The notes: generated by a model from the letters alone, not told the origin. Numbered from the stretch's first letter, positions 11,036 to 16,305 are shown. The stretch: 41,349 nt of DNA from Promethearchaeia archaeon (GCA_029856105.1 JAHQWH010000064.1:1-41349), one strand, 5' to 3'. Program-made: numbers and translations.

Positions 11036-13144
11036 ATGGAGGAATTAGAACGTAAACCATTTCTTCTAGAAAAGAATATTAAAATTTTTTTTGATGGTAT
11101 ACCGATACCGTCTTATGTTTGGCAAGAGAAAAATAACGATTTTATACTAATTGATTATAATAAAGCAGCTGAAAAAGTAACTAACGGAAAAATTAAGGAT
11201 CTTTTACATAAGAAAGCATCTGAAATTCATGAAGATAGAATAGATATTATTGAAGCGTTAAATCAATGTTTTCAAGAGAAAAAAAGTATTTATAAAATAT
11301 CTGAATATACTATGAAAACAACTGGCGAGGAAGTTTATGATTCCCTTAAAATGCATTTTCTACCACCCGATTTGATAATTGTTCATATAAATGATACAAA
11401 GCAATGGAAACTAGCGGAAAAAAAGCTTATGGCTTCTGAAGAAAAATATAGACAATTATTCGAACATTCACCTGAATCAATTGTGCTATTAAAATTAAAC
11501 GGGACAATATTCGATGTTAATGTTGCAACAGAAGTGCAATCTGGTTATAAAAAAGACGATTTACTAAACAAGAATTATTTGAAGTTAGCAGTGTATCCTT
11601 CAAACCTTATTCCATTATTTAAATCAAAAATGACTCGTTTATTAGAGGGAAAACCTATTAACCCTATTGAATTTGAAATATACAAAAAAGACGGAAGTAA
11701 AGCATGGATAAGAAGTCAAATCTCGTTGATAAAGGTCGGTGAAGAGCAATTAATCCAAGCGTTTTTAATCGATATCACTGAGCGTAAAAATTTCGAACAA
11801 AAAATTAGGCGAAAACTTGAAAACGAAAAATTCATTTCTACCATTTCATCAAGGCTTATTGGTAATATTGATATTGATAAGGCAATTAGCGAATCGCTTC
11901 TTGATATGGGAATTCTAATTGGTGCTACACGGGCATATATTTTACTGTTTAACGAAAAGGATTCTCTTGAATTTTATATCCAAGAATGGTGTGCTAAAAG
12001 AATTGAACCCCAAACGATTAACTTAACAACTATAGATTATAAAAAGTTTCCTTGGAGTTCAAAGCAAAGTAGAGAAAAAAATTTTATTTATATTAAAGAT
12101 ATATCAGAATTACCAGAAGAAGCAAGCGCAACAAAAAGAGAATTTGAAAAATTGAAGATTAATTCCTTACTTGTTTTTCCAATTAAAATTAAAAACGAAT
12201 TATATGGGTTCATAGGATTTGATAATATTGAACTGGTAAGTAAATGGGAAGAAGAAGATTTTTATTTACTCAAAACTACATCTGAAATTATTAGTAACGC
12301 TTTAGAACGCAAATGGTCCGAGGAAACATTGAAAGGAAGCCATCAATTACTAGCAGGGGTCCTTTCTTCTTTAACAGACACGATTTATCTTGTAGATAAT
12401 CATTTAAATATTATCTGGGTTAATAATGTAGCAAAACAAACATTTGGAATGCAATTAACTGGTAAAAAATGTTACAACGTTTTAATGCATCGCGGTAAAC
12501 CTTGTAAAGAGTGTATGGTCCTAAAAACCTTTTTAGATGGAAAAATTCACGAGAAAGAAAACGAATACGTCGACATAATTGGGAGCAAAATGGTCTGTTG
12601 GACTACTTCAAGTGCAGCTGGATTAAACCTCGAAGGAGAAACAGAACTGGCGATTGTGATAATACGCGACATTACAGCACGCAAATTAACAGAGGATTCA
12701 TTAATACAATCTGAAATTAGTTTGAAATTATTAAATGAAACCCTAATCCATAAAGTTGAGGAAAAAGCTATAGAATTAAAAGAATCAGAAGAAAATTATA
12801 AAAGAATGCTAAACGATTTAGATGTAGGATTTTATAAAGGAGAGTTCAAGGAAAAGTTATTAATACACAATGCGGCGTTTAATAAGATATTAGGTTTGAG
12901 TGAATCCATATCGCTGGTTGGATCTAAATCTTCCCAATTTTTTGTGGACGCAAATGATCAAAAAACATATTATAAAGATTTATTAGAAAAGGGTTATGTT
13001 AGAAATTTTACTTTTCAAATTAAATCTCCTGATGGGGAGATAATAAATGTCCAATTAAATTCTCATTTAATAAGGGATGATAAAGGTAATCCCAAAGAAG
13101 TCGAAGGTACGATCATTAAATTAACATACAATAATAAAAAGTAA
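11036..13144 (+). CDS. Multi-PAS/GAF sensory protein with no evident output domain
   Basis: PAS/PAC signatures (SEEKYRQLFEHSP, KKDGS..W, DITERK, RDITARK, IRDDKGNP) and a GAF domain (EWCA, SLLVFPI, GFIGFD); no His-kinase H box seen. Confidence 0.85.
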   Translation: MEELERKPFLLEKNIKIFFDGIPIPSYVWQEKNNDFILIDYNKAAEKVTNGKIKDLLHKKASEIHEDRIDIIEALNQCFQEKKSIYKISEYTMKTTGEEVYDSLKMHFLPPDLIIVHINDTKQWKLAEKKLMASEEKYRQLFEHSPESIVLLKLNGTIFDVNVATEVQSGYKKDDLLNKNYLKLAVYPSNLIPLFKSKMTRLLEGKPINPIEFEIYKKDGSKAWIRSQISLIKVGEEQLIQAFLIDITERKNFEQKIRRKLENEKFISTISSRLIGNIDIDKAISESLLDMGILIGATRAYILLFNEKDSLEFYIQEWCAKRIEPQTINLTTIDYKKFPWSSKQSREKNFIYIKDISELPEEASATKREFEKLKINSLLVFPIKIKNELYGFIGFDNIELVSKWEEEDFYLLKTTSEIISNALERKWSEETLKGSHQLLAGVLSSLTDTIYLVDNHLNIIWVNNVAKQTFGMQLTGKKCYNVLMHRGKPCKECMVLKTFLDGKIHEKENEYVDIIGSKMVCWTTSSAAGLNLEGETELAIVIIRDITARKLTEDSLIQSEISLKLLNETLIHKVEEKAIELKESEENYKRMLNDLDVGFYKGEFKEKLLIHNAAFNKILGLSESISLVGSKSSQFFVDANDQKTYYKDLLEKGYVRNFTFQIKSPDGEIINVQLNSHLIRDDKGNPKEVEGTIIKLTYNNKK

Positions 13145-13182: not shown

Positions 13183-13737
13183 TCACGAAAACCTTTGTTT
13201 ATCTCGATATTCTTTAACGGAAACTTCTCGCACCTCTAACCTACTATTTTCTATTAAAGTTTCTTCGATAGCTTTAATTTCATCTCTAGTTTTAATATCG
13301 CTTTTTTTAAGTTTCTCAAGAATTTCTTTTTCTCCTAATCCCTTAGTATAATACTCCCTAAATTTTTCAACAGTCTCCTCGTTGTAAAAAATATAGTGTC
13401 TATTCGTAAAAATAATCAACCAATTCTTCTTGTTTTGCTTTTTCGATAAATGGTGCATCTTTTCTTGGATTTGGGGTAAGGGACGTTTAAGCTTTCTAGC
13501 AACCATTTTATCTTCGATTGAGCTACAATCCGATAAAAATTTTTTAAGTTTTTTATTAAAAAATAGAGTTGGAATGTAAGAAAGGGCAAATAGTACTATA
13601 GTAATAACAGTCATTATTATCGCTGCTAGTGGATAAAATATAAAAACGATAAGAATTGCAATAACAAGAAATATAAACCATTTTCTTCCAATTGTCTTTA
13701 GTGTTTTTACGAATTTGCTAGGCATACAAATCTTCAA
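13183..13737 (-). CDS. Hypothetical membrane protein (two N-terminal TM helices, basic cytoplasmic domain)
   Basis: Hydrophobic stretch at aa ~20-60 in a 184-aa ORF. Confidence 0.65.
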   Translation of the reverse strand: MKICMPSKFVKTLKTIGRKWFIFLVIAILIVFIFYPLAAIIMTVITIVLFALSYIPTLFFNKKLKKFLSDCSSIEDKMVARKLKRPLPQIQEKMHHLSKKQNKKNWLIIFTNRHYIFYNEETVEKFREYYTKGLGEKEILEKLKKSDIKTRDEIKAIEETLIENSRLEVREVSVKEYRDKQRFS

Positions 13738-13808
13738 ATTATGGTTAATTTGTTCTAATTTTATAATTTATGGGTTAAAAAATCGGTATAACCATATAAA
13801 TTACCGCA

Positions 13809-13959
13809 TTCTGGGTTCCCGAACCATCTGTTCGGCAGATTGTTTTTCGGATGTGACCAGGTTTTATCCTGTAATACCATGACCGTAGCCGAAGCTACAG
13901 TTTGCAAGTTCCCATAGACTTTCAACTACAGTACTATTTGCAACGCAAAACAGTTTAAC
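13809..13959 (-). rRNA. rrf: 5S rRNA gene, circularly permuted and intron-containing (exons 13959-13846 and 13815-13809)
   Basis: The 3' half of 5S (GUUAAA, helix V UUGCAA/UUGCAA, loop E AGUA/GAA, helix IV CUGUAG/CUAUGG with GAAA loop, helix I strand CUGUAGC) precedes UUCG and then the 5' half (GCUACGG UCAUG, helix II, AAC CUGG UCACAUCCGAA); all five helices can be drawn. Confidence 0.88.
13816..13845 (-). other. Predicted 30-nt BHB-type intron in 5S rRNA loop C
   Basis: Central helix UCCG/CGGG, 3-nt bulges AAA and AAC, intron stem AAC.AUCUG/CAGAU.GUU; removal restores CCGAAC-CCAG. Confidence 0.7.
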
Positions 13960-14095
13960 TTCCAGGCGAAAAATTTTTTTTTTAAAAAATTTATATGGTT
14001 TATTTTTTTTTCAACAACCATCTTATAAATTCGGCTATATTATTGTAAAATGCTTTCTTTATATGGTTGCAAGTATATAGAGTAGTAAAGACTAG

Positions 14096-14110
14096 TAATT
14101 AAACTTTTTC
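14096..14110 (-). promoter_or_regulatory. Candidate BRE/TATA promoter for the 5S precursor (alternative TATA TTTATAAG at 14029-14022)
   Basis: Minus strand reads GAAAAAG-TTTAATTA; similar AAAAAG-TT(T)AA elements lie upstream of ACAD paralogs 2 and 3. Confidence 0.4.
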
Positions 14111-14157
14111 ATAATGAATCGTTAAATTTAAAAGGAATAGCACATGACGCTTTAATT

Positions 14158-16305
14158 TCATTCCAATTTTCTACGGTCGTTTTTGTACCTTCTAATTCCA
14201 ACTATTATAATTGTTGACGATATTCCTGCCAAACCTACAATCATAATTGACGCAATAACTAGAACGAAGTCCGTAAATGGTTTAGGTATTGTAAAACTGA
14301 AATTATGCTCGTAATGAACGGTAGTATTATTTGTAAAGTCTCTCGCAATTACGAGGTATGAATATTCTCCAGGCTCCATTTTGTTTAAGGTAATGTTAAA
14401 CTCCCCTTTATTTTCATTGAAATGGTTAGATAATCTATGAGTCGAAAAGTCCGTGAAATTATTCTTTGATATTAGTAAAAATACGCTTTCGATTCCAGAA
14501 TGATTATCACTAGCGTTAATAGAAAACCGAAGATTATCAGATACTGTGGGGTTTATTGGTGCATAACTTACATTAGATACCATGGGATTGTCTGTATCTT
14601 TAAGCGTAGTAAAGTTATGATAGGAAGGAATTATATTATGACCCGTAATAATTGTACTATAATTCTCGTTTGCTCCAATTGGTAATCTAAAATCTACAAA
14701 CCCATTTTTATCAGCATAAACAGTTCGATATTTCCCATCTGTAGTTCTTAAGTTAATTCTTGCTCTCGGAACAATATTACCAAGATTATCTCTAACATGT
14801 AATGAAACGAGCTGACCTTCGTAAAAATTTTCGGTAAATTGATTTGGAACGCTTCTATATATGTCTGTGTATATATCCAGTTCGGGGTCGCCTAGTAAAT
14901 TGTATGTTAGAATATTTTTACGTTGCCACTCTTGCACCATTGAAGCGTCACCTCTTTTGAAGTAATCGCTATTCATATAGGTAACCTTAGAATCGTATAA
15001 CGCCCTTCCTTGTTGGAACTTTTTTTCATCGAAAAACTCTTTCCAAAACAATTTAGCGTTGCCACGATTTAGTTTTTCAAGATTTTCATCAAATTCATAA
15101 TACCAACTTACTCTTATAGCTCCTATGTAGCCCACTGCTCCCGCTAAAGGTCGTTTTATTAAACGCTCTCCTATGCTATAATCGCCTTGATCGTAAGAAG
15201 AAGTTGTACACACATCGGCGTAGAACAACGAAGGCATGTTTATATTGCTGCTTGATAAAGCATTTCCATTATCATAATATATTGTAGGGCTATCATCAGT
15301 AATCTTAGTTGGATCCCCATGACCAGCAATTATCACTGTAGAATAACCTAAATTAAACTCGTCAATAAAACTTGTAGCATTAAGAGGACTAAGCATATTT
15401 GGGCGTTCTGGATCGCTTGGCGTAAAATTGGAAGTAGTTTTTGTTAAATGCGTAAAATTCATTTCTGATACGACATAGTTCTGCCAAATATATTCTGTTA
15501 AGCGAGCCTCGTCTTCAGGTGGCACATATGAAGAAACGCCCCCTGCTAATAGCATTTTATTCATCCAATCTCCCATAAAAGGATCTGTTTCATATTTTAA
15601 AGTTTTGTTGATCATATCAGAGAGCTCTACAATATTATTAGCTGGTAGACGACCAACATAGATTTCTGGTATCCACGATACTTCATCAATATTTCCCGTG
15701 TATTCCGAAGATTCGCCCCATATACTATTGTTATTATCGTCCCACGATCCTGTTAAATCAGCGTAATAAAAATCAGTTGGTTTATAATAATCGTCCCAAT
15801 TCAAATATTCAGATTCACCACCTATTAGCGTTACATCTGGGTTATATACATATCTTATAGGAATTAAATTATCTTCAGCATCGCCGGCGAGAAGAACCCA
15901 TTGAATGTTTTCCTTTTCGTAATACTCTTTTATCATATTTCGAATTTGCTCTGCTTTATCCCTACCTTCATAATCCGAATAGTTGGATAAAACGATGGTT
16001 TTAACCCCTTTCTCGTTTTTCCATTCCATTAAGGGGGTAACAGCATCCAAAAAACTCGTGTCATTTATAATTATAAGCATCTCTATCTTTTGATCGTACC
16101 AAGTGGCGTTTAATGTTTCATAGTCAATTTCTGGCAATTGAGACAAATCAATTTCGGGGACGTTATTGGCTGTTTTCAATTTGTTTAATAGATTCTTATC
16201 ATTTGTAATTGGACTGCTAAATTCTATCATAAGGCTTACAACTGGAATAAGAACCAATATAATTAGTGAAAAAATTGCAAGTTTCTTAAAACCTGTTTTA
16301 GTCAT
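14158..16305 (-). CDS. Peptidase C25 (gingipain) family cysteine protease, membrane anchored
   Basis: WKNEKG, WVLLAGD, TDFYYADL, YVGRLP, AGHG (catalytic His), DVCTT (catalytic Cys), YNLLGDP; N- and C-terminal hydrophobic helices. Confidence 0.88.
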   Translation of the reverse strand: MTKTGFKKLAIFSLIILVLIPVVSLMIEFSSPITNDKNLLNKLKTANNVPEIDLSQLPEIDYETLNATWYDQKIEMLIIINDTSFLDAVTPLMEWKNEKGVKTIVLSNYSDYEGRDKAEQIRNMIKEYYEKENIQWVLLAGDAEDNLIPIRYVYNPDVTLIGGESEYLNWDDYYKPTDFYYADLTGSWDDNNNSIWGESSEYTGNIDEVSWIPEIYVGRLPANNIVELSDMINKTLKYETDPFMGDWMNKMLLAGGVSSYVPPEDEARLTEYIWQNYVVSEMNFTHLTKTTSNFTPSDPERPNMLSPLNATSFIDEFNLGYSTVIIAGHGDPTKITDDSPTIYYDNGNALSSSNINMPSLFYADVCTTSSYDQGDYSIGERLIKRPLAGAVGYIGAIRVSWYYEFDENLEKLNRGNAKLFWKEFFDEKKFQQGRALYDSKVTYMNSDYFKRGDASMVQEWQRKNILTYNLLGDPELDIYTDIYRSVPNQFTENFYEGQLVSLHVRDNLGNIVPRARINLRTTDGKYRTVYADKNGFVDFRLPIGANENYSTIITGHNIIPSYHNFTTLKDTDNPMVSNVSYAPINPTVSDNLRFSINASDNHSGIESVFLLISKNNFTDFSTHRLSNHFNENKGEFNITLNKMEPGEYSYLVIARDFTNNTTVHYEHNFSFTIPKPFTDFVLVIASIMIVGLAGISSTIIIVGIRRYKNDRRKLE

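What the first reader, a model, noticed from the sequence alone, without database searches (positions are those of the whole stretch)
13809..13969. Circularly permuted 5S rRNA gene predicted to mature as a covalently closed circle
Seen: on the minus strand the two halves of 5S rRNA are in swapped order. The transcript reads GUU AAA CUGUUUUGC G UUGCAA AUAGUA CUGUAG UUGAAAGU CUAUGG GAAC UUGCAA A CUGUAGC [UUCG, 13893-13890] GCUACGG UCAUG GUAUUACAG GAUAA AAC CUGG UCACAUCCGAA... The normal 5' and 3' ends (7-bp helix I) are joined by a C(UUCG)G tetraloop, and the gene opens in helix III instead. Leader and trailer form a BHB-like motif: outer helix UCGC/GCGG, central 4-bp helix CUGG(13965-62)/CCAG(13814-11), and 3-nt segments AAG and AAU. 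The inner flanking helix is missing, so the motif is relaxed. Established: archaeal tRNA-splicing endonuclease cuts after the second bulge nucleotide and RtcB ligates; this route matures permuted tRNAs and circular SRP RNA in Thermoproteales. Inference: cuts at 13960/13959 and 13809/13808 plus ligation give ...GAAC CCAG AA|GUU AAA..., exactly the canonical helix III with its AA bulge. With the intron also removed, the product is a 121-nt circle. I recall permuted 5S rRNA from some algal mitochondria but not from archaea. Standard 5S models would probably miss or only partly hit this gene.
Basis: partly seen in the sequence, partly recalled or inferred. Interest (0 to 1): 0.97.

Follow-up and report, generated by a model that had tools for sequence, protein, structure and literature searches.

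The report
Back-to-front 5S rRNA gene, ring-forming
This Lokiarchaeial (Asgard) archaeon encodes its only 5S ribosomal RNA back half first, with an extra 30-base intron, between tRNA-splicing cut signals. Environmental RNA contains exactly the predicted cut-and-rejoined 121-base form, which explains why standard tools find no 5S gene in these relatives of eukaryotes.

Summary

- **Gene order.** On the minus strand, 13959-13846 holds the 3' half of 5S, then helix I closed by UUCG, then the 5' half. A 30-nt insert (13845-13816) and a 7-nt micro-exon (13815-13809) follow.
- **Standard models fail.** Rfam finds no 5S in the window or in the genome, which is 92% complete. The rearranged sequence matches sister-family 5S end to end.
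- **Flanking motif.** Leader and trailer form a processing stem and a relaxed bulge-helix-bulge motif with covarying pairs. The insert has its own such motif.
- **RNA evidence.** Metatranscriptome contigs from two studies carry CCGAA-CCCAGAA-GUUAAAC, so the intron is removed and the ends are joined. One contig is 151 nt, which is 121 plus a 30-nt overlap.
- **Enzymes.** The genome has two EndA paralogs and RtcB.
- **Spread.** The layout occurs in 120 of 135 genomes of the family and in 17 other Asgard families that matched the model (10 genes inspected by eye). It has two break points and about 30-nt introns at several sites.
- **Open point.** It is not proven that the ring, rather than a re-opened form, sits in the ribosome.

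I found no paper in the held library describing this. The scan had already noted the same layout at least 51 times on other Asgard DNA.

The parts
14017..14040 (-). Conserved promoter-like element (AUAGCCNA..UUAUAAGAUGG; TATA-like TTTATAAG at 14029-14022), about 20-25 nt upstream of the processing stem
   Evidence: Read. The same motif sits at the same distance in homologs. Its promoter function is inferred, not tested.
13988..14000 (-). 5' strand of the 13-bp processing stem (AACCAUAUAAAUU)
   Evidence: Pairs with 13802-13790 in the minimum-energy fold of the precursor. Homologs have a different but complementary pair, UUAACCACA.../...UGUGGUUAA.
13966..13969 (-). BHB outer helix, leader strand (UCGC)
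   Evidence: Pairs with GCGG at 13807-13804. All 4 pairs change on both sides across homologs.
13962..13965 (-). BHB central 4-bp helix, leader strand (CUGG)
   Evidence: Pairs with CCAG at 13814-11. It is 100% paired in the alignment, with CG 12, UA 12 and UG 2 at the variable pair. It forms in the minimum-energy fold.
13959..13961 (-). Leader bulge AA|G, with the inferred 5' cut between 13960 and 13959
   Evidence: The RNA joint lies within GAA|G. The exact position is ambiguous by 3 nt because GAA occurs on both sides. The cut rule holds in 106 of 119 genes.
13846..13959 (-). Main exon (114 nt): 5S 3' half (helices II', V, IV, loop E, I'), the UUCG cap, then the 5S 5' half (helices I, II, III 5' strand, loop C up to CCGAA)
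   Evidence: It is covered contiguously by RNA contigs.
13890..13893 (-). UUCG tetraloop joining the conventional 3' and 5' ends of helix I
   Evidence: Helix I is 100% paired with 2 compensatory pairs. The loop is exactly 4 nt in 110 of 114 family genes and is UUCG in 59. RNA contig depth across it is not lower than in neighbouring regions.
13816..13845 (-). 30-nt BHB intron in loop C (central helix UCCG/CGGG, bulges AA|A and AA|C, inner helix AAC/GUU, then an AUCUG/CAGAU hairpin)
   Evidence: Absent from the RNA contigs and from many orthologs. BHB pairs are 100% paired with one compensatory pair. The boundaries can slide by 2 nt.
13809..13815 (-). 7-nt micro-exon CCCAGAA (helix III 3' strand plus the AA bulge). 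CCAG at 13814-11 also serves as the trailer strand of the BHB central helix.
   Evidence: Present between CCGAA and GUUAAAC in RNA contigs, where TGGG appears between the two sides of the joint.
13804..13808 (-). Third bulge nucleotide U (13808; inferred 3' cut between 13809 and 13808) and outer helix trailer strand GCGG (13807-13804)
   Evidence: The bulge nucleotide varies (U, A or G) among homologs, as expected if it is unpaired.
13790..13802 (-). 3' strand of the processing stem (AAUUUAUAUGGUU)
   Evidence: The stem covaries across homologs.
13777..13782 (-). Run of six U, a likely archaeal terminator
   Evidence: Read. A T-run follows the stem in homologs. This is inferred.

Best explanation
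This is the organism's real, expressed 5S rRNA gene, written in circularly permuted order.

A transcript of about 225 nt, roughly 14002 to 13777 on the minus strand, folds into three nested elements. These are a 13-bp processing stem, a 4-bp outer helix and a relaxed bulge-helix-bulge (BHB) motif whose 4-bp central helix pairs leader CUGG with trailer CCAG. The archaeal tRNA-splicing endonuclease cuts two nucleotides 3' of the central helix on each strand (AA|G and AA|U). It cuts the same way at a second BHB that brackets a 30-nt intron in loop C. RtcB then joins the ends.

The product is a 121-nt RNA in which ...CCGAA-CCCAGAA-GUUAAAC... rebuilds helix III with its AA bulge. The conventional helix I ends stay capped by UUCG, so the product is a covalently closed ring.

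Shown:
- the permuted order;
- the covarying 5S fold and BHB;
- loss of the intron and joining of the ends in RNA;
- presence of EndA and RtcB genes;
- conservation across the family and beyond.

Inferred:
- which enzymes act;
- the exact cut positions within the repeated GAA;
- that the ring itself is the form built into ribosomes. I put this last point at about 0.65.
For: - **No conventional 5S.** None is found in the window or in the 92%-complete genome.
- **Order.** The rearranged sequence matches the sister-family 5S HMM as one hit. The genomic order gives two swapped hits.
- **5S fold.** The permuted fold is 92.9% paired, against 33-42% when slid, with 16 doubly changed pairs.
- **BHB.** The motif is 95.1% paired, against 15-52% when slid. 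All outer-helix pairs are compensatory, and the motif forms in the minimum-energy fold.
- **RNA.** Contigs from runs X16 and X19, two separate studies, show a joint from 13962 to 13846 with TGGG between. In RNA sense this reads CCGAA-CCCAGAA-GUUAAAC. The X16 contig is 151 nt, which is 121 plus a 30-nt repeat of its own start. X19 depth across the tetraloop is about 92,000, similar to neighbouring bins. No X19 contig runs into the leader.
- **Joined form not in DNA.** It is absent from the DNA of this genome and of the 38 other genomes of the genus without the type-B break point.
- **Enzymes.** Two EndA paralogs (98.5 and 72.3 bits) and RtcB (558.8 bits) are present.
- **Spread.** The covariance model R1 finds one full-length copy in 120 of 135 family genomes, two closed genomes among them. 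It also hits four other families in the class and 13 more in the phylum. Ten of these genes, read by eye, are permuted.
- **Second break point.** Relatives with a loop C break give a canonical junction under the same cut rule.
- **Cap.** The loop closing helix I is 4 nt in 110 of 114 genes and mostly of UNCG type.
- **Product fold.** The minimum-energy fold of the ring is the 5S three-way junction.
Against: - Only assembled contigs of RNA runs could be laid, not raw reads. They cannot show RNA ends, strand or stoichiometry. A de Bruijn cycle could also arise from a mix of precursor and a re-opened linear form.
- The inner helix of the terminal BHB is only 3 bp, and the leader bulge is then 2 nt, so the motif is not a strict 3-4-3 BHB.
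- No enzyme assay, RNase R test or ribosome preparation exists for this organism.
- The genome is 92% complete, so an unassembled conventional copy cannot be excluded for this genome alone. Two closed genomes of the family were matched by the permuted model, but they were not themselves searched with RF00001.
Confidence: 0.8

Rival explanations
1. The ring is only a processing intermediate, as classically described for archaeal 16S and 23S rRNA and for permuted tRNAs. It is re-opened, for example in the UUCG loop, to give a conventional linear 5S that enters the ribosome.
For: - This fits the classical archaeal rRNA pathway and permuted tRNA maturation, as described in PMC7758197 and PMC12918454.
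- Contigs cannot show RNA ends.
- An earlier check in this scan priced the 'ring is the ribosomal 5S' claim low for another genome.
Against: - The linker is only 4 nt, has a fixed length in 110 of 114 genes and is mostly a stable UNCG cap. That leaves no spacer for end-trimming enzymes.
- X19 contig depth across the loop is as high as in flanking bins.
- The circular SRP RNA of Thermoproteus and circular 23S rRNA show that rings can be final forms.
Confidence: 0.15
2. The transcript is cut at the BHB sites but mostly left unligated. The working 5S would then be a linear permuted molecule, or two pieces held by base pairing, with ends in helix III. The ligated form would be a minor by-product.
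For: - Brown-algal mitochondria use a linear permuted 5S (PMC4267664).
- X19 depth falls towards the junction.
Against: - An unspliced loop C intron would leave the 7-nt micro-exon unattached, yet the RNA contigs carry it joined on both sides.
- By my estimate, about 11,000 of about 29,000 depth units at the 5' end continue through the junction. None continue into the leader.
- The fall in depth is expected, because contigs that cross the joint are only partly laid.
Confidence: 0.04
3. The locus is an assembly artefact or a pseudogene, such as a collapsed tandem 5S repeat or a chimera, and the true 5S gene is unassembled.
For: The genome is a 238-contig MAG that is 92% complete with 6% contamination.
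Against: - The same layout occurs once per genome in 120 of 135 family genomes from many studies, including single-contig genomes.
- Pairs are maintained by compensatory change.
- The only conventional 5S found in the genus lies next to a bacterial 23S rRNA, so it is a contaminant.
- The RNA is highly abundant.
Confidence: 0.01

Closest known systems
Permuted, circularised SRP RNA gene of Thermoproteus tenax (Plagens et al. 2015, eLife, PMC4731332)
   Same: A structured non-coding RNA gene is permuted at the DNA level. [quoted passage not shown] RNA-seq shows the termini ligated into a circular molecule that is the functional form.
   Different: The RNA here is ribosomal 5S, not SRP RNA. The host is an Asgard archaeon, not a crenarchaeon. 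The trait spans many families rather than a few species. The gene also carries BHB introns, and the break point differs between relatives. No binding, cleavage or northern data exist here.
Circularly permuted tRNA genes (Cyanidioschyzon merolae; Soma et al. 2007, as cited in PMC4267664; also reported for Thermofilum, from my own knowledge)
   Same: The 3' half is encoded before the 5' half. A BHB forms at the leader-trailer junction, and expression goes through a circular RNA.
   Different: In tRNAs the circle is an intermediate. It is re-opened by RNase P and tRNase Z at an intervening spacer. Here the natural ends are joined by a 4-nt cap with no spacer, so re-opening is not expected.
Permuted mitochondrial 5S rRNA of brown algae (Valach et al. 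2014, PMC4267664; Rfam mtPerm-5S)
   Same: This is a 5S rRNA whose helix I is closed into a hairpin and whose gene order is permuted, and standard 5S models miss it.
   Different: The algal ends lie at the junction of the alpha and gamma domains. The final RNA is linear and stays permuted, and no BHB or ligation is involved. Here the break is in helix III or loop C and is repaired by ligation. No Rfam family, mtPerm-5S included, matches this locus.
Circular or circularly permuted 23S rRNA in archaeal ribosomes (PMC12918454; Pyrococcus furiosus, PMC7758197)
   Same: BHB cleavage and ligation of an rRNA, with the ligated form kept in the mature ribosome.
   Different: Those genes are collinear, and only the RNA is circularised. 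PMC12918454 states that circularisation applies to 16S and 23S 'but not 5S rRNAs'.
Archaeal BHB introns in rRNA and tRNA genes
   Same: The 30-nt loop C insert has a central 4-bp helix, two 3-nt bulges and an inner helix. It is missing from the RNA.
   Different: I found no report in the held library of such introns in a 5S rRNA gene. They leave a micro-exon of only 7 nt.

Membership tests
5S rRNA (Rfam RF00001) | Three-way junction with helices I-V, maintained by covariation | tested here: met
   The fold is 92.9% paired in the permuted register. Every 5S helix except the 2-bp distal part of helix III holds at least one compensatory pair. The minimum-energy fold of the ring gives the three-way junction.
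5S rRNA (Rfam RF00001) | Sequence similarity to 5S of relatives over the full length, including the loop E AGUA/GAA motif and loop C CCGAAC...GGAAGUUAA | tested here: met
   The rearranged sequence hits the HMM of eight sister-family 5S genes over hmm 4-114 (30.4 bits, E 2e-10). Other species score 42-50 bits.
5S rRNA (Rfam RF00001) | Scores above the Rfam gathering threshold | tested here: not met
   In genomic order there is no hit, even at E<=10, as expected for a permuted gene.
5S rRNA (Rfam RF00001) | Abundant RNA, and the only 5S candidate in the genome | tested here: met
   There is no other 5S in G000. Summed contig depth reaches about 100,000 in metatranscriptome X19, though contig depth is only a rough guide.
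BHB-dependent permuted RNA genes (permuted tRNA, Thermoproteus SRP RNA) | 3' part encoded upstream of 5' part, with the natural ends linked | tested here: met
BHB-dependent permuted RNA genes (permuted tRNA, Thermoproteus SRP RNA) | Leader and trailer form a bulge-helix-bulge motif | tested here: met
   The central 4-bp helix is present in all 35 distinct sequences first tabulated. The outer helix covaries. The motif is relaxed: the inner helix has 3 bp and the leader bulge is effectively 2 nt.
BHB-dependent permuted RNA genes (permuted tRNA, Thermoproteus SRP RNA) | RNA molecules carry the ligated junction at the predicted site | tested here: met
   Contigs of two RNA studies carry it, and one closes on itself at 121 nt. 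The junction is absent from DNA.
BHB-dependent permuted RNA genes (permuted tRNA, Thermoproteus SRP RNA) | Cleavage by the tRNA-splicing endonuclease and ligation by RtcB | not testable with these tools
   The genes are present: EndA on C107 and C12, RtcB on C191. Enzyme activity was not assayed.
BHB-dependent permuted RNA genes (permuted tRNA, Thermoproteus SRP RNA) | Covalently closed product (RNase R resistance, divergent RT-PCR) | not testable with these tools
   The only evidence is a self-overlapping contig, which is compatible with a ring but does not prove it.
Archaeal BHB intron | BHB at the exon-intron boundaries, insert absent from the RNA and from orthologs | tested here: met
   The motif is UCCG/CGGG with bulges AA|A and AA|C, and AAC/GUU with one compensatory pair. 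The insert is absent from RNA contigs and from about two thirds of family genes.
Brown-algal mitochondrial permuted 5S (mtPerm-5S) | Ends at the alpha/gamma junction, a linear permuted final RNA, and a match to the Rfam model | tested here: not met
   No Rfam match. The break lies in helix III and is repaired by ligation.

The most novel reading that the evidence does not exclude
In a large part of the Asgard archaea the ribosome's 5S rRNA is a covalently closed ring. It is made from a permuted, sometimes intron-bearing gene by the tRNA-splicing machinery. The break point has moved during evolution, from the AA bulge of helix III in most genes to loop C in others, even within one genus. This suggests repeated re-permutation, perhaps through the circular RNA itself. 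It would be the first natural circular 5S rRNA and the first permuted rRNA gene in a cellular (non-organelle) genome.
Probability: 0.6. Interest if true: 0.95.

Novelty: new variant of a known kind. Interest (0 to 1): 0.9.

Why it matters
- **Annotation.** 5S rRNA is a universal ribosome part, and its gene is taken to be easy to find. Here it is invisible to Rfam, so standard annotation will report these genomes as lacking 5S. This touches genome-quality standards that ask for 5S, 16S and 23S.
- **Role of the splicing machinery.** The tRNA-splicing endonuclease and ligase system becomes essential for making a ribosomal RNA, and possibly for making it circular. This happens in the closest archaeal relatives of eukaryotes, whose genomes also seem rich in such introns.
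- **Ribosome biology.** It would be a natural test of whether a ribosome can work with a 5S that has no ends.
- **Evolution.** The two break points and the scattered 30-nt introns give a system for studying how BHB elements are gained, lost and moved.

Tried and rejected
- **Rfam.** The gathering scan of the window gave no hits. The permissive scan of 13600-14200 gave only weak snoRNA and miRNA matches (E 1.7-4.6), which I take as chance.
- **ARAGORN.** It found no tRNA.
- **Infernal on the rearranged sequence.** This was not possible, because the tools take only stored loci. I used nhmmer instead.
- **Conventional 5S in G015.** It follows a bacterial 23S rRNA and so is a contaminant.
- **Chance hit.** One exact-pattern hit, L058 in a Pseudomonadota bin, is a chance match in GC-rich DNA.
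- **RNA runs X15 and X18.** Single low-depth contigs cover the leader or the intron. They may be precursor or contaminating DNA, and I draw nothing from them.
- **Unresolved motifs.** The terminal BHB of the permuted genes in families f3 (G026) and f4 (G029) could not be resolved by eye or by the blind search. The strict automatic rule left 13 of 119 family genes unresolved, because of a mismatch next to the central helix, a truncated contig or more than two introns.
- **Literature.** Six searches of the held library found no archaeal permuted or circular 5S. Subscription journals are not covered.
- **Not used.** No structure prediction or complex prediction was run.

Full report
**What is in the sequence.**
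I read 13650-14150 on the minus strand. From 5' to 3' it shows:
- leader UCGC (13969-66), CUGG (13965-62) and AA (13961-60);
- GUUAAAC from 13959, followed by the 3' strand of helix II, helix V (UUGCAA/UUGCAA), loop E (AGUA opposite GAAC), helix IV (CUGUAG/CUAUGG) and the 3' strand of helix I (CUGUAGC);
- UUCG (13893-90);
- the 5' strand of helix I (GCUACGG), loop A, the 5' strand of helix II, then CUGG UC ACAUCCGAA ending at 13846;
- a 30-nt insert (13845-16);
- CCCAGAA (13815-09), U (13808) and GCGG (13807-04).

Further out, AACCAUAUAAAUU (14000-13988) is the exact complement of AAUUUAUAUGGUU (13802-13790). A TATA-like TTTATAAG lies at 14029-22 and a run of six T at 13782-77.

**Standard tools miss it.**
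- Rfam at gathering thresholds finds nothing in the window.
- A permissive scan of 13600-14200 gives no 5S at E<=10.
- ARAGORN finds nothing.
- RF00001 has no match at E<=10 anywhere in the 3.66-Mb, 92%-complete genome.

**It is a 5S in swapped order.**
I built an HMM from eight normal-order 5S genes of the sister family, which score 53-69 bits with RF00001. I searched both forms with it.
- The genomic sequence gives two hits in reversed order: hmm 49-115 first, then hmm 3-42.
- The rearranged sequence (13889-13846 + 13815-13809 + 13959-13894) gives a single hit over hmm 4-114 (30.4 bits, E 2e-10).
- Orthologs from other species score 42-50 bits when rearranged.

**Homologs and covariation.**
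A DNA search found the locus in 21 of 24 genomes of the same genus sampled, all permuted. I aligned 28 genes (A1).
- The permuted 5S fold plus the outer helix is 92.9% paired, against 33-42% when partners are slid by 1-3 columns. Sixteen of 38 pairs change on both sides. Helix I, which is closed by the tetraloop, is 100% paired and has two compensatory pairs.
- The terminal BHB (outer, central and inner helices) and the intron BHB are 95.1% paired, against 15-52% when slid. All four outer-helix pairs are compensatory. The variable central pair is CG in 12, UA in 12 and UG in 2.
- The predicted precursor 14003-13777 folds at -57.9 kcal/mol (z -2.9). The fold contains the 13-bp stem, the outer helix and the central CUGG/CCAG helix with the AAU bulge.

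**The cut rule is general.**
Cutting two nucleotides 3' of the central helix on each strand gives ...CC(A/G)GAA-GUUAAAC..., the canonical helix III with its AA bulge.

Some relatives have a second layout, which I call type B. Their leader reads ...GCG CCGG AA|CCAUCCGAAC..., and their trailer reads ...ACCCGG UC|N CGC.... The break is therefore in loop C. The same rule again restores the canonical ...CCCGGUC-CCAUCCGAACCCGGAAGUUAAAC....

I ran a census of 119 genes from the family. I required a 4-bp central helix, at least 2 adjacent outer pairs and a restored 5S junction. This resolved 106 genes:

| Feature | Count |
|---|---|
| Type A break | 76 |
| Type B break | 30 |
| Product length 119-123 nt | 68 |
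| Product length 149-153 nt | 36 |
| Product length 180-181 nt | 2 |

The extra length comes from inserts of about 30 nt, each with its own BHB. They lie in loop C, at several positions in loop D and helix IV, and in the 3' strand of helix I. Sister species differ in whether they carry them.

**RNA evidence.**
Twenty public runs hold the stretch, six of them RNA. I laid the contigs of four metatranscriptomes from four studies on 13700-14060.
- Runs X16 and X19 show a joint that 'goes back 117', from 13962 to 13846, with TGGG in between. In RNA sense this is CCGAA-CCCA-GAAG..., that is CCGAA|CCCAGAA|GUUAAAC. The intron is gone and the micro-exon is joined to the start of the gene, as predicted.
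- The cut can slide within the shared GAA.
- The X16 contig is 151 nt. Its first 30 nt (13921-13892) repeat at its end, which is what a 121-nt cycle gives in a k=31 graph.
- In X19 the summed depth across the tetraloop bin is about 92,000, similar to neighbouring bins. Contigs that pass 13959 all continue as the junction form (loose ends TGGGTTCGGATG...), and none enters the leader. A second loose-end consensus shows the joined form of a related species.
- X15 and X18 each gave one low-depth contig that covers the leader or the intron. These may be precursor or DNA.

The joined sequence is absent from the DNA of this genome. It is also absent from the 38 other genomes of the genus without the type-B break. 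It occurs only in the three type-B genomes, where that stretch is naturally contiguous.

**Enzymes, host and spread.**
- The genome has two tRNA-intron endonuclease paralogs (open frames of 200 and 202 codons; 98.5 and 72.3 bits) and RtcB (558.8 bits).
- An exact pattern for the capped helix I found 39 real loci among GTDB species. Nearly all are labelled Promethearchaeota or Promethearchaeia, which is Lokiarchaeota.
- A covariance model of the permuted gene (R1) finds one full-length copy in 120 of 135 genomes of the family, across 12 of 13 genera and including two single-contig genomes.
- It also hits four other families of the class, whose genes are permuted on inspection.
- It hits 13 more families of the phylum. 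The six genes I read are permuted, with the 5' half downstream of the 3' half.
- The sister family f2 has ordinary 5S genes that start near a promoter and end at a T-run, with no BHB.
- The one 'normal' 5S in the genus lies behind a bacterial 23S rRNA and is a contaminant.

**Ring or intermediate.**
The junction shows that ligation happens. Joining the two ends of one molecule gives a ring. Several observations favour the ring as the final form:
- the cap is exactly 4 nt in 110 of 114 genes and is UUCG in 59, so it offers no spacer for trimming;
- RNA depth does not drop at the cap;
- the ring folds into the 5S three-way junction.

Against this, contigs cannot show RNA ends or amounts, and archaeal 16S and 23S rings are classically described as intermediates. 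I put the ring as the ribosomal form at about 0.65.

**Comparison with what is known.**
- The closest known case is the permuted, circular SRP RNA of Thermoproteus (PMC4731332).
- Next are permuted tRNA genes, whose circle is re-opened.
- Brown-algal mitochondrial 5S is permuted but stays linear and unligated (PMC4267664).
- Circular 23S rRNA comes from collinear genes. That paper states that 5S is not circularised (PMC12918454).

Six searches of the held library found no description of a permuted or circular archaeal 5S, or of BHB introns in 5S. The mechanism is a known kind applied to a new and universal RNA, so I class it as a new variant of a known kind.

Earlier notes of this scan record the same layout at least 51 times in at least 49 other Asgard genomes. 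Those notes are unpublished AI notes. They led me to run the phylum search, which bore them out for the families I inspected.

Noticed in passing
L020, L022, L054, L057, L060, L061 and 24 genes of genus g22 (e.g. L118, L122): There is a second break point (type B, in loop C between GGUC and CCAUCC) instead of the AA bulge of helix III. Both types occur within single genera (g1, g15, g22), so the break point has shifted more than once or is polymorphic.
   Followed up: partly
L019/L021, L054, L114-L117, L121, L144, L171-L173, L202-L206: Introns of about 30 nt with their own BHB lie at other 5S sites: several positions in loop D and helix IV, the 3' strand of helix I, and a second loop C site. 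There are up to two per resolved gene, and probably three in L115. Presence differs between sister species (L051 versus L052).
   Followed up: partly
L040 (G015:C263): A bacterial 23S-5S-tRNA stretch is binned into a Lokiarchaeial MAG, which is contamination. It would count as that MAG's '5S' in quality checks.
   Followed up: yes
G020:C36 end and G020:C51:21527-21607; G111:C211:1-82; G083:C4:1-62; G072:C109:5220-5394: Some assemblies break inside the 5S gene or hold a second partial or weak copy. G072 has a 30-bit second match about 700 nt downstream of the first. These may be extra copies or decayed duplicates.
   Followed up: no
G032:C1:1399892-1400758 (L033): The sister family, which has ordinary 5S, holds three identical copies in tandem at about 375-nt spacing in a closed genome. 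A tandem array is the kind of starting material from which a permuted gene could arise by deletion.
   Followed up: no
window 14158-16305 (-) and 11036-13144 (+): The neighbouring genes are a peptidase C25 family protein (192 bits) and a multi-PAS-domain protein. The 184-codon frame just downstream (13183-13737) has no Pfam match. The 5S gene is not linked to 16S or 23S rRNA.
   Followed up: partly
same genome, other contigs (scan notes e1-5701528, e1-5701534, e1-5701202): Earlier first-stage notes report BHB-type introns inside protein-coding genes (elf1, uL11, a hydrolase) of this genome. If real, the splicing machinery has unusually many clients here.
   Followed up: no
L112 (G029, f4) and L113 (G026, f3): These are permuted 5S genes whose terminal motif I could not resolve. 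G026 has a 7-nt rather than 4-nt loop on helix I, and G029 has an apparent repeat, CCAUCCGAAC...CCAUCAGAAC, near its 3' end.
   Followed up: partly
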